Below the pieces are notes generated by a model. It had not been told where the DNA came from. It worked only from the letters and a program-made list of their open reading frames with translations, and ran no database searches. From assembly GCA_013115125.1 (NCBI GenBank), contig JABANN010000071.1, forward strand, positions 1 through 64,000: a stretch of 64,000 nucleotides of DNA. The letters run 5' to 3'. This document shows positions 21,281-27,476 of the stretch, piece after piece (position 1 is the first letter of the stretch; every line of letters starts with the position of its first letter). A program made the translations under genes and the position numbers. Source of the DNA: Perkinsus olseni. Its lineage: Eukaryota.

Positions 21281-21318
21281 TGCACGAATCGTGCAGCACG
21301 ATGGCATCGTGACGATGC
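21281..21318. repeat. Two overlapping 22-nt zigzag footprints (8-mers TGCACGAT and CACGATGC)
   Basis: tgcacga|atcgtgca|gcacgat at 21281-21302 and cacgatg|gcatcgtg|acgatgc at 21297-21318. Confidence 0.9.
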
Positions 21319-21798
21319 TAGTACACGTATCAGTTGTTCCCTCAGGACGTGAGGGAACAACTGCTGTTGAAAGTCTGCACTTTTTTGGGTCGCATTTCAC
21401 GCGGGCCGAAGGTCGAAATGTCTACGGGATTGGGAGACGGATTGAAGCCGCGAACCGAGCCATGAAACGGCTTGGGAAATTCTGGAAGTCACTCGACGCG
21501 AGCTTGTCAGACAAGCCTTGTCTGGAAAGATAACGGTCATCCAAGCAACCGCATTCGTGACGCTCAAAGCGTCACGCTTTTCTATGCGAGTGAGACGTCG
21601 ACCCTCAAGGAGTCTGATACCCAGCGATACTGTGGCTTTTTAGAACACTCTTCTACAATGCCGCATCGAGGCGACCCGCTATCCCAAACGTCAACAATGG
21701 GGGCCCTATCGAGAGCAAGATGCCCAGAAAGCCGAGGGGGCTCGGCGGCCTGAAGTCGCCGGCTTCGGTGGCACGGCCATCCTCTACGGTTGCCATTA

Positions 21799-21820
21799 GG
21801 CTACCGGGTAGCCGCTACCC
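21799..21820. repeat. 22-nt zigzag footprint (8-mer GGCTACCC)
   Basis: ggctacc|gggtagcc|gctaccc. Confidence 0.9.
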
Positions 21821-22039
21821 CATCAGTGAGATACATTATTGGAATCCGTCTATGATAGACAGCGTCCGGCGAACACGGTGCATGCCCTGCAGCGTGGTCG
21901 CCGTGGAACACAGGCCGTGGTTGCTGCTGAGTGGTTCACCTGGGTAAGTCTCCCAAGACAGGGGAAATTCACTCGGTATATACTATGCAGGCATGAGACT
22001 CATGCCGCATGACATCCCTATGACAAGGGAGCACAGTGG

Positions 22040-22086
22040 CTGTTGATTCAACAGTGTTGAATCCCAGCTGAGTCAGCTGAGCTGAC
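22040..22086. repeat. Two adjacent 22-nt zigzag footprints (8-mers CTGTTGAA and CAGCTGAC)
   Basis: ctgttga|ttcaacag|tgttgaa at 22040-22061 and cagctga|gtcagctg|agctgac at 22065-22086. Confidence 0.9.
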
Positions 22087-22149
22087 CCTGAGATTATCAA
22101 TTTCAAACATATCACGTTGATGGTCGAAGGCTTATCCTATTTGCCCCCG

Positions 22150-22200
22150 ATAAGGAGCTATGCTGGAGGTAAGCAGCTTACCCCTAGCATATCTCCTTAT
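22150..22200. repeat. 51-nt inverted repeat (25-nt arms, 3 mismatches, 1-nt centre)
   Basis: ataaggagctatgctggaggtaagc-a-gcttacccctagcatatctccttat. Confidence 0.9.
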
Positions 22201-22682
22201 AGGCTATAAGTTATAGCAGCTAGCCGTAAGCTGAATGGCCGATGACGAGAAGCCAGTAGATGAAAGATTGGATTCCAGACGGTAAAAGTCAGTCGGTCTC
22301 GAACATCAAGGCACTCTTCTCAGAAGAATCTTCTATGATTCCACACCATAAGCTGATATCAGCTCCGTCGTCTACGAAAGATCTACAGCGCTGCACACTC
22401 ACCTGGCGCAGAACCCATTACAGGCCGTCGGCTGGACTTCGTTACGCGGAGCGAACGTCTCCCCGGCACCCTTGCCAATTGACTGCTGAACCAATCAAGA
22501 TATAATACGGATCAACAAAACGATATGTTCTTGGACTCCTATGCCTTCGCCGGAGGCACTGCTCTAGACAGGGCAAAATGACTGAGCAATGTGACTCAAG
22601 TAATGAGAGAAGAATACAAATAAGAATAAGAACCCTCCGGGAATAGCAGCTCCCAGTTAAGTTCACGGGGTTCTTGACTCAA

Positions 22683-23141
22683 CTATCGGAGCCGATCAGG
22701 GTGACCGCAGTATTCATTACTCAGTTCATACTTCGTTTTGTCGCCACAGAGAGGTTGGATAGTGATGCCATCAGTGGTCTTATTATAGGGCAGCAGCTGC
22801 CACATATTGGTATCCAGAGTATATTTGTTGGCAAAGGTTGTGAAATGCTTAGATCTCACGTCGACGTCGAAGACATTAGTGAAGTGGTTCAACCTCCCGA
22901 TGGGGATACGGCTTGTCTAGACTTGTTTCTGATGACGATGCACCAACGTGAAAATGCTCATAGTGCCATTTAGAAAGGGCGGCGTACGTGGGAAACGGAG
23001 AGCCCACTCGGGTCCTGCGTGATGGTGAACCTTACTACAGTAGTACTCGCTGGGAGGAAAGGCATTCTTGTCGTGCTGAACAGCGGCACCCCCAGAACAG
23101 AGGACAGCGAGAGCCATCAGATAGAGAACAGCGCTTCGCAT
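22683..23141 (-). pseudogene. Small secreted protein family, copy A, with an in-frame TAG at 22917-22919
   Basis: MRSAVLYLMALAVL...FPPSEYYCSK...WALRFPRTP...KQV*TSRIPI. Homology to copies B and C continues in the same frame after the stop. Confidence 0.8.
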
Positions 23142-24755: not shown

Positions 24756-25199
24756 CTAGAAGCCTTTGCAATGCCCCGGTGTCAAGTTCTCCTGCTCATC
24801 ATCACCCCCCGAGGGGTTGATTGTAATAGTATTAGTCCTTCCGTCATAAGGGAGGCTCCTCCACTGGTCGGCATCCAAACCATATTCTTCGGCGAAGCGC
24901 GTGAAATTCTTAGACTCCACGTCGACCTTAATAGAAGTTCCTTGAGGGCACTCGTTCTTAGCGATGGGGATGCCATATGTGTACACCTGCTGGTGATTCA
25001 CCATCTTGAAGATGCTCATAGTGTTCTTCAAGAACTCCGGCCTACGTGGGAAACGAAGAGCCCATAAGAACTCCTTAAGCTCGGCCTTCTTGCAACAGTA
25101 GTATTCATCGGGAGGGAAGACAGCCTGATTCTTGTCGATGGCGTTGGCCTGGAGATAGAGAACAGCGAAGGCCATCAGATGGAGGACAGCGATACTCAT
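24756..25199 (-). CDS. Small secreted protein family, copy B (147 aa)
   Basis: Signal-peptide-like N-terminus; FPPDEYYCCK, WALRFPRRPEFLKNTMSIF, YGIPI; C-terminal Cys. Confidence 0.8.
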   Translation of the reverse strand: MSIAVLHLMAFAVLYLQANAIDKNQAVFPPDEYYCCKKAELKEFLWALRFPRRPEFLKNTMSIFKMVNHQQVYTYGIPIAKNECPQGTSIKVDVESKNFTRFAEEYGLDADQWRSLPYDGRTNTITINPSGGDDEQENLTPGHCKGF

Positions 25200-25537
25200 C
25201 GTGGGTTCTAACTTGAAGAAAGCCCTGAAGAGATAGCCTAAACCGAATCACACTCCCCGTTTCGAGCACTGCCGGGCCGACAGTGACTCCCGGTCAGGCG
25301 CTAGCTTGCACGCAGGCGCCGCTGACGCGTGCTCCAGCGTCCGTACTGCGGACTTTGCTGAACCTCGAACTGAGCGATAACCGTGAGTGCGACCCCGAGA
25401 GCACTCGAGATTCTTATCATTCGTCCTTATTATTCTGGTTGGGCCATACGCTATGTCCCTCGGGACTCATCCCGCGTCGGAGCGCATGATTGCAATCTAT
25501 TCGAGAGATTCTATTGAAAATTGTCCGAGGGTGAGTA

Positions 25538-25559
25538 GTCCTAAGTTAGGACTCCTAAC
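25538..25559. repeat. 22-nt zigzag footprint (8-mer GTCCTAAC)
   Basis: gtcctaa|gttaggac|tcctaac. Confidence 0.9.
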
Positions 25560-26120
25560 CGTCAACTTCTGCGTTCTGTGTCGCCGAATCTTCGAGATCC
25601 GGTGGAGAATTGGAGTTCGAGGTCTTTGCGCTCTACTCCTTCGAGCTTTGAATCAATCAGATCTGTCAAATCTTCGAGTCGGGTGCTTCAGATGTGTTGC
25701 TTGCGTGAATTGCAGAAGGGAGGTCCACCTGCAGCGTCAACTGAGATAGGACTCAGTTAATGCCAACAAGCGATGTCAACGTGCCTCCGCGCTATGGGGG
25801 AGCTCGCTGTTATTTTACAGTTCTAGCCCCTTCAACAGTGCACCACCGTTCTTGTGGATGGTAGAGAAGCGAGTGTTACCTCCATCACCGGGGTCACGTA
25901 ACTTGTCTCTGCCGTGTCCCGGTATCGCATAAACAAGGGCCTAGCAGTGGGGCATCGTCAAACATCCATATGCATGTTTATGAAGCTTCTTAGGAGTCGG
26001 TGTAAACATCCAGCGGGATCGGTAATCCCGTAAGTGCTGAAGACAGCTGTGAGAGGTTATACAATCAGTTCTTGTCAAACTCCCGATGGCCAACGGTTGT
26101 GATACAGGATCCATCGATGG

Positions 26121-26142
26121 GTGACTGCCAGTCACTGACTGG
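26121..26142. repeat. 22-nt zigzag footprint (8-mer GTGACTGG)
   Basis: gtgactg|ccagtcac|tgactgg. Confidence 0.9.
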
Positions 26143-26398
26143 GGAATTTACGGCGGATGCGGATGCTAGGTGGTTCCAGCAAGCGCAGCACGCCTGCCCT
26201 CCTCACTCTCCCATAACTGCCGAACTCAATTCCTACGTGATGAGATATACTCGAGAAGCAAGGATCTTGCTACAAGAAATGTTCCTGGACCATAAAAACT
26301 CTCGTCATAGACAGTCCAAGTATACTATATTGGAATTATGAGTCAGATAGCCGGCCTCCTCCCCTCAAAGGAAGAAGATGGCAAGAGGTCAACAAGCC

Positions 26399-26830
26399 TC
26401 ACCTCACGCAGTTCGCGGACTTCAAAAGGTATACCTTCTTTCTACTGCTTGAAGGAAAGATGACAATGCTATCAGTTTCTTCATCGTATAATAGCAACAT
26501 CCAGTAGTCAGCATCCAAGGATTGGCCCTTGGCGAACGTCGTGAAATGTTCAGATGTCACATCGACCCTGACGAAAGTTAACCCCACGAAGGGGAACTCC
26601 GCGATAGGGATACCATAGGCGTTGACTTGTGTGTGGTTCGCCAAAGTGTGGATGCTCATAGTATTTTTCAAGAAATCAGGTTTACGTGGGAAGCTGAGAG
26701 CCCACTCGAATCCCTCCAGCTCAGCCGTCTTACTGCAGTAGCTAGCGTTGGGAGGAAAGACAGCGCCGGCGTGCTGGACCGCGAAGACCATCACATATGT
26801 AGTAGCCGCCACCATCGTGAGGTACTTCAT
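26399..26830 (-). CDS. Small secreted protein family, copy C (143 aa)
   Basis: Signal-peptide-like N-terminus; FPPNASYCSK, WALSFPRKPDFLKNTMSI, YGIPI; C-terminal Cys. Confidence 0.8.
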   Translation of the reverse strand: MKYLTMVAATTYVMVFAVQHAGAVFPPNASYCSKTAELEGFEWALSFPRKPDFLKNTMSIHTLANHTQVNAYGIPIAEFPFVGLTFVRVDVTSEHFTTFAKGQSLDADYWMLLLYDEETDSIVIFPSSSRKKVYLLKSANCVR

Positions 26831-27454
26831 ATCTATGAAGAGCCCTTGTTGGGAGGTTCGCTGAGGATGGGGACGACTTACGATGCACGCGTGTGTGCGT
26901 TTGCGTGCATGTCAAACGGCGCGAGCGGGTAGAGTCGAGCTGGTACGGAACAGCCACAATTCAGGAAACACGGTTCGGTGCTCGTGGCCAACCCCATTCC
27001 AAGAGAAATATAACGACGGCGATAAGTCCCTAAGATTGGGGTACTGAGACCCGTTAAGCTACTCGTACTCCAAGCTACGGGGAACTCGTTAGGACCTACG
27101 TACTCTCTCTCGCAGACGTTCACCTGCAGGTTTGGTGAGTCCTCCTGCAGCCCAGCGGGCTGAGCCGGGACGCCTTGTCTCTGGAGGGGTTGTAACCTTC
27201 ATAGCAAGTCGTTTAAAACGAGTTTTCTTCGACAAACCTCCTTCGTACGCTTGCATGTAACCATGCTTACTGTCTTTGACCTTCGTTTCTCTCCAATCTT
27301 CCACAGGAAAGAGAGCAATCCATGCTGGCCGAAGAAACACTAGTGGAGTGTCAAAAATGCCCCGAGCAACGGCCATTCCGTCTGTTGGACAAGCGTCTAC
27401 ACCGACACTCCGAGCCGGAGCCTTCGACACCTTAGACAGACAGTTGTTCTGGTA

Positions 27455-27476
27455 GCCACCGACGGTGGCCCACTGT
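27455..27476. repeat. Near-perfect zigzag footprint (8-mer GCCACCGT, 1 mismatch)
   Basis: gccaccg|acggtggc|ccactgt. Confidence 0.8.

What the first reader, a model, noticed from the sequence alone, without database searches (positions are those of the whole stretch)
21281..27476. Dense field of stereotyped 22-nt zigzag scars, A[1-7]+revcomp(A)+A[2-8], matching 8-bp-TSD hairpin transposon excision footprints
Seen: eight perfect motifs (21281, 21297, 21799, 22040, 22065, 24450, 25538, 26121) and one with a single mismatch (27455). Each uses a different 8-mer but the geometry is identical: two single-base-centred palindromes exactly 7 nt apart. Fourteen of the 22 bases are constrained, so chance gives about 4^-14 per site, or about 2e-4 per 64 kb. 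I noticed none inside the conserved genes (eye scan only). Established: hAT elements (Ac/Ds, Hermes, Ascot-1) make 8-bp TSDs and leave hairpins on the flanks; opening them gives palindromes centred on the complement of the base next to the element. Several 8-mers also have T at position 2 and/or A at position 7, like the nTnnnnAn hAT preference. Inference: an 8-bp-TSD element repeatedly inserted and excised here, and the host often repairs the site the same way (+14 bp, the two opened hairpins annealing through the inverted TSD). The uniform geometry suggests a dedicated microhomology hairpin-repair route and gives a readable fossil record of transposition.
Basis: partly seen in the sequence, partly recalled or inferred. 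Interest (0 to 1): 0.92.

Follow-up and report, generated by a model that had tools for sequence, protein, structure and literature searches.

The report
Transposon excision scars in Perkinsus DNA
Non-coding DNA of the clam parasite Perkinsus olseni is peppered with identical-geometry 22-base "zigzag" scars that are best read as the healed wounds left when a cut-and-paste transposon with an 8-base target duplication jumped out, giving a readable record of past transposition and of how this organism repairs hairpin-capped DNA breaks.

Summary
None occur at k=6, 7 or 9-13, and none in shuffles. A decaying series follows: 8, 12 and 28 sites with 1, 2 and 3 violations against 0, 0.5 and 6.9 expected, so about 50 scars in 64 kb.

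Only odd-centred palindromes are enriched; even ones are not. Arms stop at 7 nt. The centre bases complement the outer 8-mer bases in 26 of 30 cases. This is the product I derive for flank hairpins made one base inside an 8-bp target duplication, opened at least 8 nt from the tip and annealed through the inverted duplication. The hAT superfamily fits best.

Support: a paralogous copy carries a single 8-mer at one scar. A scar-bearing intron is 67 nt where others are 42-55. A second study's contigs match exactly.

Not shown: no hAT element, no filled site and no clean allelic empty site. No whole genome was available. The organism is Perkinsus olseni. I rate it a new variant of a known kind, of fairly high interest.

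The parts
19332..19353 (.). perfect 22-nt zigzag scar, inside the GT..AG intron 19303-19369
21281..21302 (.). perfect zigzag; overlaps the next one by 6 nt (target 8-mers offset by 2 nt)
21297..21318 (.). perfect zigzag
21799..21820 (.). perfect zigzag
22040..22061 (.). perfect zigzag
22065..22086 (.). perfect zigzag
24450..24471 (.). perfect zigzag
25538..25559 (.). perfect zigzag
26121..26142 (.). perfect zigzag
1868..1889 (.). zigzag, 1 violated constraint
2059..2080 (.). zigzag, 1 violation; the paralogous copy at 1636-1643 has a single 8-mer
20314..20335 (.). zigzag, 1 violation
20500..20521 (.). zigzag, 1 violation
21559..21580 (.). zigzag, 1 violation
31919..31940 (.). zigzag, 1 violation
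50556..50577 (.). zigzag, 1 violation
1725..51201 (.). twelve zigzags with 2 violations (0.5 expected), starting at 1725, 15653, 20152, 20735, 20795, 21117, 21745, 22314, 25495, 36095, 49967 and 51180; each is 22 nt
21331..21363 (.). odd-centred palindrome, arms 16 nt with 1 mismatch; read as a long one-sided hairpin-derived tract
22151..22199 (.). odd-centred palindrome, 21 of 24 arm positions paired, centre 22175. The inferred second duplication copy, with its first base complemented, lies at 22225-22232
1636..1643 (.). single 8-mer in the paralogous copy; acts as an empty site for the scar at 2059
19303..19369 (+). 67-nt intron carrying scar 19332; 53 nt without the 14 inserted bases

Best explanation
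The zigzags are excision footprints of a cut-and-paste DNA transposon that makes 8-bp target-site duplications and leaves hairpins on the flanking DNA. It is most likely a hAT-superfamily element.

Proposed steps (inferred, not observed):
1. The element inserts and duplicates an 8-mer a1..a8.
2. At excision the transposase nicks one base inside each flank. The freed flank end attacks the opposite strand, so each flank ends in a hairpin whose tip is the complement of the element-adjacent base (a8' on the left, a1' on the right).
3. Host nucleases open both hairpins on the 3' side, at least 8 nt from the tip.
4. The two unfolded 3' tails end in a8'..a1' and a1..a8. These are perfectly complementary over 8 nt, so they anneal.
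5. Fill-in and ligation give a1..a7 + a8'..a1' + a2..a8. This is the observed 22-mer, a net gain of 14 bp.

The inverted duplication is the longest microhomology available. Any microhomology-driven repair therefore converges on one product, which explains the uniform geometry. Scars accumulate in untranscribed intergenic and promoter-side DNA and in introns, then decay by point mutation.
For: 1. Size is sharp. There are 12 perfect motifs at k=8 and none at k=6, 7 or 9-13. The excess persists with mismatches only at k=8.
2. Only odd-centred palindromes are enriched. Arms of 6/7/8/9 nt number 36/33/6/2 against 11.8/3.55/0.7/0.25 expected. Even-centred ones number 14/4/0/0 against 12.1/3.1/0.95/0.25. 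With arms of 10 nt or more and at most 1 mismatch, odd is 9 against 1.2 and even is 1 against 2.0.
3. Arms end at 7 nt. Only 6 of the 24 arm sets in the 12 perfect scars extend further, which is the 25% expected by chance.
4. Where the a2..a7 copy sits at the zigzag offset, the outer base complements the palindrome centre in 13 of 15 cases on the left and 13 of 15 on the right; chance is 25%. This requires an 8-bp unit, not 6 or 7.
5. Ac/Ds (hAT) footprints are described as palindromic insertions centred on the complement of the base next to the element. Arms reach 20 nt in S. cerevisiae, with frequent microhomology (passages of PMC5873905).
6. The scar is a derived 14-nt insertion. A paralogous copy (1575-1690 against 2002-2125) has one 8-mer where the scar at 2059 sits. 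Deleting 14 nt inside that scar gives the best alignment score of all 14-nt deletions tried: 58 against 41 undeleted, tied with one other position.
7. The intron 19303-19369 holding scar 19332 is 67 nt. Eleven introns bridged by transcript-like contigs are 42-55 nt.
8. The palindrome centred at 22175 is followed 51 nt later by a1'+a2..a8 of its inferred duplication. This is a classical non-zigzag hAT-type footprint.
9. The decay series (12, 8, 12, 28 sites at 0-3 violations) shows real, aged genomic events.
10. Contigs of a run from a different study match 18800-32200 with no differences.
11. Scars cluster: 22 of 32 lie in 19.3-27.5 kb against 4.1 expected (Poisson p about 5e-10). Other clusters lie upstream of two minus-strand genes. 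TcBuster, a hAT element, favours transcription start sites (passage of PMC3499496).
Against: 1. No hAT transposase domain appeared in the 16 ORFs scanned.
2. No element with terminal inverted repeats plus an 8-bp duplication was found beyond chance (3 hits, about 0.5 expected, and none convincing).
3. The only clear mobile insertion in the field is a retroelement-like fragment with a 10-bp duplication.
4. The genome could not be searched, so nothing shows that this species carries hAT elements.
5. No allelic empty site (single 8-mer) or filled site was seen. None of the 12 indel rows shown is a 14-nt deletion; 58 rows were not shown.
6. Classical short hAT footprints are not visibly enriched. 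Direct repeats at offsets 7 and 8 number 18 and 20 against 11.8 expected. Such uniformity is unlike the diverse footprints reported in plants and yeasts.
7. The density is very high for independent insert-and-excise cycles: 11 scars with at most 2 violations in 1.34 kb, about 11.5% of that DNA.
8. The target logo is only weakly hAT-like.
9. The one-base nick offset of hAT transposases is recalled knowledge (Hermes work).
Confidence: 0.6

Rival explanations
1. The repair logic is the same, but the element is not hAT. It could be another superfamily with an 8-bp duplication, such as a MULE, a Merlin-like element or an undescribed family, or a domesticated relative that still cuts and pastes.
For: Muta1, a MULE, also forms flank hairpins and has 8-9 bp duplications (passages of PMC5499845). 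Merlin elements make 8-9 bp duplications. Conserved Merlin-related transposase ORFs without recognisable ends are reported in Perkinsus marinus (passage of PMC8101967). No hAT was seen in the window.
Against: Families with 8-9 or 8-10 bp duplications should also leave k=9 scars, yet k=9 gives 0/0/1 at 0/1/2 mismatches. Muta1 excision is more than 90% precise in yeast. Flank hairpins are not known for Merlin. The odd centre needs a one-base nick offset, which is documented for hAT-type footprints and was not reported in the MULE passages I read.
Confidence: 0.17
2. The scars are transposon-independent templated insertions. At a break or a stalled fork, a polymerase copies 8 nt of the opposite strand and then switches back (snap-back or template-switch synthesis). 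This yields an inverted plus a direct copy.
For: It would not need dozens of insert-and-excise cycles in 1 kb. No element was found.
Against: Nothing in that mechanism fixes the length at exactly 8, yet there are 12 perfect motifs at k=8 and 0 at k=6, 7 or 9-13. Nor does it fix a centre base that complements the outer base (26 of 30). No microhomology is needed or visible at the would-be switch points, because the 8-mers are all different. Even-centred palindromes are not enriched.
Confidence: 0.12
3. The zigzags are a sequencing, amplification or assembly artefact such as fold-back chimeras.
For: Palindromic artefacts are known from amplification-based libraries; this is recalled knowledge.
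Against: Contigs built independently from a run of a different study and year cover 18800-32200 with 0 differences. That sample may be the same strain. A graded series of mutated copies exists. The scars avoid long ORFs. One sits in an intron that transcript-like contigs appear to splice out.
Confidence: 0.01
4. The zigzags are functional cis-elements, for example cruciform or alternative-hairpin signals, maintained by selection.
For: They cluster upstream of genes and between genes.
Against: Every copy has a different 8-mer. Copies decay by mutation at the rate expected for unconstrained sequence. A paralogous promoter copy lacks one.
Confidence: 0.02

Closest known systems
Ac/Ds (hAT) excision footprints in plants, Saccharomyces cerevisiae and Candida albicans
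   Same: An 8-bp duplication is retained. Palindromic P-nucleotide tracts are centred on the complement of the base next to the element. Arms reach 20 nt in S. cerevisiae, and microhomology is used at the joint (passages of PMC5873905).
   Different: Those footprints are experimental and diverse: 28 types among 128 Candida revertants. Here they are natural, fixed genomic scars, nearly all of one product in which the whole inverted duplication serves as the microhomology, at up to about one per 120 bp. I found this exact 22-nt product described in no paper. Yu et al. 2004 is not held and Lazarow et al. 2012 was seen only as cited, so it may be in print there.
V(D)J recombination and Transib coding-end hairpins with P nucleotides
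   Same: Flank hairpins are opened off-centre and produce palindromic additions. The link to hAT is stated in PMC5499845.
   Different: From recall: RAG and Transib nick exactly at the border, giving even-centred palindromes, and Transib makes 5-bp duplications. Here even palindromes are not enriched, and k=5 has 2 hits.
Muta1 (MULE) transposition
   Same: Hairpin on the flanking DNA; 8-9 bp duplications.
   Different: Excision is mostly precise in yeast, and the duplication length varies. Here the length is strictly 8 and scars are the rule.
Microhomology-mediated end joining and polymerase-theta templated insertions
   Same: The joint forms by annealing short complementary 3' tails, with fill-in. 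This is inferred here.
   Different: Here the microhomology is created by the break chemistry itself (the inverted duplication), so the product is stereotyped rather than variable.

Membership tests
hAT-superfamily excision footprint | 8-bp target-site duplication retained at the empty donor site | tested here: met
   Motif size is sharply k=8: 12 perfect against 0 at k=6, 7 and 9-13. Outer bases fit an 8-mer in 26 of 30 cases.
hAT-superfamily excision footprint | [quoted passage not shown] | tested here: met
Odd palindromes are enriched and even ones are not. The feature is as described in PMC5873905.
hAT-superfamily excision footprint | Target preference nTnnnnAn | tested here: inconclusive
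   Symmetrised logo of 32 sites: T2 and A7 are 24 of 64 each, C3 and G6 are 28 of 64 each, against a background of 0.23-0.27. The consensus itself is recalled, not read.
hAT-superfamily excision footprint | hAT elements (transposase with hAT dimerisation domain, short terminal inverted repeats, 8-bp duplication) present in the same genome | not testable with these tools
   No genome is held. Within the window, none of 16 ORFs scanned has a hAT domain, and the repeat-plus-duplication scan gave only chance-level hits.
hAT-superfamily excision footprint | Empty (single 8-mer), filled and scarred alleles at one site | tested here: inconclusive
   One paralogous empty site. A divergent-strain contig replaces 22169-22235 (67 nt, holding scar 22196 and most of the long palindrome) with 10 nt (tables 5 and 5c). 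No clean allelic single 8-mer and no filled site were seen.
Microhomology-mediated end joining product | The joint lies within a stretch complementary between the two processed ends | tested here: met
   The central 8 nt equals the overlap of the two unfolded hairpin tails in my derivation from the sequence. The pathway enzymes were not tested.
Template-switch or snap-back insertions | Variable length, with microhomology at the switch points | tested here: not met
   Length is fixed at 14 inserted nt and k=8. The 8-mers are unrelated to each other.
RAG/Transib-type footprints | Even-centred palindromes and a 5-bp duplication | tested here: not met
   Even palindromes are at expectation. Even zigzags number 0.

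The most novel reading that the evidence does not exclude
Perkinsus olseni carries, or recently carried, a very active hairpin-forming transposon with an 8-bp duplication, or a domesticated nuclease derived from one. Its donor sites are healed almost only by annealing of the inverted duplication. That would imply hairpins are opened far from the tip, and that classical end joining is weak or absent. Under this reading, excision scars are a major mutational input and a source of new intergenic DNA: about 11% of one 1.3-kb spacer, and roughly one scar per few tens of substitutions in hot regions. They would also give a datable, genome-wide fossil record of transposition that needs no surviving elements.
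Probability: 0.3. Interest if true: 0.85.

Novelty: new variant of a known kind. Interest (0 to 1): 0.72.

Why it matters
Excision footprints are normally seen only in reporter experiments. In genomes they are too short and too varied to recognise, so the excision side of cut-and-paste transposition leaves almost no record.

Here the repair outcome is so uniform that each past excision can be read as a 22-nt signature. It can be dated by its decay and mapped to promoter-side hot spots.

If it holds genome-wide, three things become directly testable:
- how often DNA transposons excise relative to their insertion;
- where they land in a protist that processes its mRNAs by spliced-leader trans-splicing;
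- which break-repair route an early-branching relative of dinoflagellates and apicomplexans uses for hairpin-capped breaks.

It would also show that footprints alone can add measurable amounts of non-coding DNA and lengthen introns by 14 nt.

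Tried and rejected
1. Whole-genome scan. No genome is held for this window, so the k-scan, the hAT inventory and the repair-gene inventory could not be run.
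2. Allelic empty sites from public runs.
 - I laid four runs, and the tables were truncated. Twelve of 70 indel rows were shown, and none is a 14-nt deletion.
 - The divergent-strain run X7 has very low depth over 21035-21928.
 - X7 contig pieces end near scars (19277/19434, and a joint starting at 27459). This is suggestive but not evidence.
3. X7 joint 22168 to 22236. The strain has 10 nt where the window has 67. The model predicts a 10-nt unscarred site, but only 5 of 10 bases agree by my hand comparison, so I do not count it as an empty site.
4. Elements with terminal inverted repeats plus a 7-, 8- or 9-bp duplication in the window. Only chance-level hits appeared. The 16117-23712 candidate encloses host genes and was dropped.
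5. The two long intronless ORFs beside the clusters as transposases. ORF 16350-19031 is a low-copy P. olseni gene with glycosyltransferase-like look-alikes. ORF 46920-49640 has only a weak peptidase S41 hit. The two are unrelated.
6. ORF 6590-7993, with a zinc-finger hit I recalled as occurring in hAT-derived proteins. It is a single-copy host gene.
7. High-copy segment 20565-20636 as a candidate small transposon. It has a 10-bp duplication and a simple-repeat tail, so it is retroelement-like.
8. Six-frame Pfam scan of the field.
9. Tandem paralog units as further empty-site tests. Only the coding parts align.
10. Metagenome contigs. No Perkinsus relative was found; the best match is 59% identity. 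I used the loci only as a negative control.
11. Rfam and tRNA scans found nothing.
12. Earlier findings of this scan had nothing relevant.
13. Partner duplication copies for other solitary palindromes. There were 3 complement-consistent against 2 other hits at non-zigzag offsets. This is not significant overall; only the one at 22175 is persuasive.

Full report
**Observation**

A full scan finds 12 perfect copies, not 8. The additional ones are at 19332, 21502, 22196 and 50143.

The size is sharply defined. Perfect hits by k are 20 (k=4), 2 (k=5), 0 (k=6), 0 (k=7), 12 (k=8) and 0 for k=9-13. I also counted violated constraints among the 14 in the 22-mer. There are 12, 8, 12 and 28 sites with 0, 1, 2 and 3 violations, against 0, 0, 0.5 and 6.9 in 30 Markov shuffles. 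That makes about 50 real sites in 64 kb, after removing overlapping shadows (54 distinct sites with at most 3 violations).

Other geometries are at or near expectation. These were odd zigzags of k=6, 7, 9 and 10, even zigzags, a 23-nt variant and an all-direct control. In 792,235 nt of 80 unrelated metagenome loci there is no perfect k=8 motif.

**What kind of palindromes**

Only single-base-centred palindromes are in excess.
- Perfect arms of 6/7/8/9 nt occur 36/33/6/2 times against 11.8/3.55/0.7/0.25 expected.
- Even-centred ones occur 14/4/0/0 times against 12.1/3.1/0.95/0.25.
- With one mismatch allowed and arms of at least 10 nt, odd palindromes number 9 against 1.2, and even ones 1 against 2.0.

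In the 12 perfect scars, only 6 of 24 arm sets run beyond 7 nt, which is the chance rate. Where the inner six bases are repeated at the zigzag offset, the outer base complements the palindrome centre in 13 of 15 cases on each side. The repeated unit is therefore an 8-mer whose two end bases appear complemented at the two centres.

Direct repeats are enriched at offset 14 (36 against 14.0 expected). They are barely enriched at offsets 7 and 8 (18 and 20 against 11.8), so short classical footprints are not prominent.

**Organism and context**

The window is nuclear DNA of Perkinsus olseni.
- The 893-aa ORF 16350-19031 is 100% identical to a P. olseni hypothetical protein.
- The triosephosphate isomerase ORF is 95% identical to that of P. 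marinus.

Transcript-like contigs of two runs skip eleven minus-strand GT..AG introns of 42-55 nt between 27.9 and 29.9 kb. They carry short loose ends at 29213 and 30050, which I read from recall as spliced-leader junctions.

Of the 32 sites with at most 2 violations, 22 lie in 19.3-27.5 kb against 4.1 expected (p about 5e-10). The other clusters are these:
- 1.7-2.1 kb, upstream of the start of the minus-strand fatty-acid desaturase gene;
- 49.9-51.2 kb, upstream of the minus-strand ORF 46920-49640.

Five of the 32 fall in ORFs of at least 150 aa, which cover 39.6% of the window. Three of those five are in an ORF with no family match. The densest stretch, 21035-22375, holds 11 such scars, about 11.5% of its bases.

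**Mechanism**

I worked the hairpin model through on paper.
1. An element sits between two copies of a1..a8.
2. The transposase nicks one base inside each flank, and the flank 3'-OH attacks the other strand.
3. The left flank becomes the hairpin a1..a7-a8'a7'..a1'. The right flank becomes its mirror image.
4. Both hairpins are opened on the 3' side, at least 8 nt from the tip. The unfolded 3' tails then end in a8'..a1' and a1..a8, which pair perfectly.
5. Fill-in gives a1..a7 + a8'..a1' + a2..a8, which is the observed 22-mer.

Opening on the 5' side, or a nick exactly at the border, would give a different centre base or even-centred palindromes. Neither is seen.

[quoted passage not shown] Arms reach 20 nt in S. 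cerevisiae, with frequent microhomology (passages of PMC5873905). TcBuster footprints are of the same kind, and TcBuster favours transcription start sites (passages of PMC3499496). The one-base nick offset of hAT transposases is my recollection of the Hermes work and was not read here.

All steps of the mechanism are inferred from the product. None was observed.

**Evidence that the scar is a derived 14-nt insertion**

- *Paralogous empty site.* The 5' end of the desaturase gene is duplicated (1575-1625 and 2002-2052, 78% identical). The scar at 2059 lies just beyond the second copy, and the first copy has a single 8-mer there (1636-1643). Deleting 14 nt inside the scar gives the best alignment score of all 14-nt deletions tried (58 against 41 undeleted), tied with one other placement. 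MAFFT alone did not place this gap.
- *Intron length.* Scar 19332 lies in the intron 19303-19369 of an adenylate-kinase-like gene. That intron is 67 nt, or 53 nt without the 14 inserted bases, against 42-55 nt for the eleven bridged introns. A transcript-like contig piece ends at 19299. Its next listed piece starts at 19721, with 254 contig letters for 421 window letters between them. This fits three introns, but the joint itself was not among the rows shown.
- *A non-zigzag footprint.* The palindrome centred at 22175 has 21 of 24 arm positions paired. It is followed 51 nt later by the complement of a1 plus a2..a8 of its inferred duplication. That is a footprint of the classical hAT kind with a long one-sided tract. 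About 1e-3 such matches are expected by chance for this palindrome, or roughly 0.05 after allowing for all palindromes tested.
- *Overlapping scars.* The scars at 21281 and 21297 are explained by two insertions into target 8-mers offset by 2 nt, in either order. This follows from my derivation on the sequence.

**Reality of the sequence**

Contigs built from a run of another study and year cover 18800-20605, 20600-23870 and 24001-32200 with no differences. The sample may be the same strain. The graded decay series is also incompatible with an artefact. Its roughly flat counts per violation class would fit formation at a steady rate, although the 21-22.3 kb stretch has an excess of perfect copies, which suggests a recent local burst.

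In a divergent strain (run X7), one contig replaces 22169-22235 with 10 nt (tables 5 and 5c). That 67-nt stretch holds scar 22196 and most of the long palindrome. At least this cluster is therefore strain-polymorphic, but the 10 nt do not match the predicted empty site well.

**What is missing**

- No hAT domain was found in the 16 ORFs scanned.
- No element with terminal inverted repeats and an 8-bp duplication was found beyond chance.
- No genome was available to search.
- No clean allelic empty or filled site was seen.
- The only clear mobile insertion in the field is an 87-nt fragment of a high-copy element with a 10-bp duplication and a simple-repeat tail. It is retroelement-like.
- The target logo is only weakly hAT-like.
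- Footprints are unusually uniform and dense compared with experimental systems.

Other hairpin-forming or 8-bp-duplication families therefore cannot be excluded. These are MULEs and Merlin-like elements, whose transposase ORFs persist in P. marinus. The absence of k=9 scars argues against families with variable duplication length. A transposon-free template-switch origin would have to explain a fixed length of 8 and the complemented end bases.

**Comparison and novelty**

The chemistry matches known hAT excision footprints and microhomology-dependent repair of transposon-made hairpins. What I did not find described is the exact 22-nt product (duplication, inverted duplication, duplication, with one-base overlaps) as a dominant natural genomic signature, or anything like it in Perkinsus. 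The searches were made, over listings and abstracts, with passages read in six papers. Key older papers were not available: Yu et al. 2004 is not held, and Lazarow 2012 and Colot 1998 were not seen. Supplements were closed. The product may therefore have been recorded in experimental footprint tables.

**Verdict**

- It is a new variant of a known kind.
- Confidence is 0.6 that these are excision scars of a hairpin-forming transposon with an 8-bp duplication, most likely hAT.
- Interest is 0.72.

Noticed in passing
window 20566-20652: An 87-nt fragment of a very high-copy element: depth is about 23,000 against a baseline of about 76 in one run. It is flanked by a perfect 10-bp direct repeat and ends in a short CA/TG repeat. 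It looks like a 5'-truncated non-LTR retroelement or SINE copy. Other copies continue differently after 20636.
   Followed up: partly
window 22917-23348, 24756-25247, 26399-26911 (minus strand): Three tandem, diverged paralogs (62-66% DNA identity over about 300-400 nt) of a small, probably secreted protein. Each is covered by transcript-like contigs. The scar field fills the spacers between them.
   Followed up: partly
window 27797-30050 (minus strand): At least eleven very short introns (42-55 nt) are bridged by transcript-like contigs. Two places (29213, 30050) have contigs that end in the same 9 loose letters, probably spliced-leader acceptor sites.
   Followed up: no
window 23485-24050: A multi-copy stretch (about 5-20 times baseline depth) with variable internal deletions among copies. 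It breaks the short-read contigs at 23870-24001. No terminal repeats or target duplication were recognised. It contains no zigzags.
   Followed up: partly
window 1575-1625 and 2002-2052: The start region of the fatty-acid desaturase gene is duplicated about 430 nt upstream (78% identity), with the scar-rich spacer between the two copies.
   Followed up: yes
window 21990-22012: A near-zigzag with centres 8 nt apart instead of 7 (k=9-like, 2 mismatches). It may be a rare 9-bp duplication or a scar with an extra base.
   Followed up: no
window 11159-11234: Two tandem copies of a 38-nt unit, 97% identical.
   Followed up: no
window 16350-19031: A long intronless ORF (893 aa) in an intron-rich genome. 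It is specific to Perkinsus in the search. Alleles or strain copies are only 88-91% identical, and language-model look-alikes are glycosyltransferases.
   Followed up: partly
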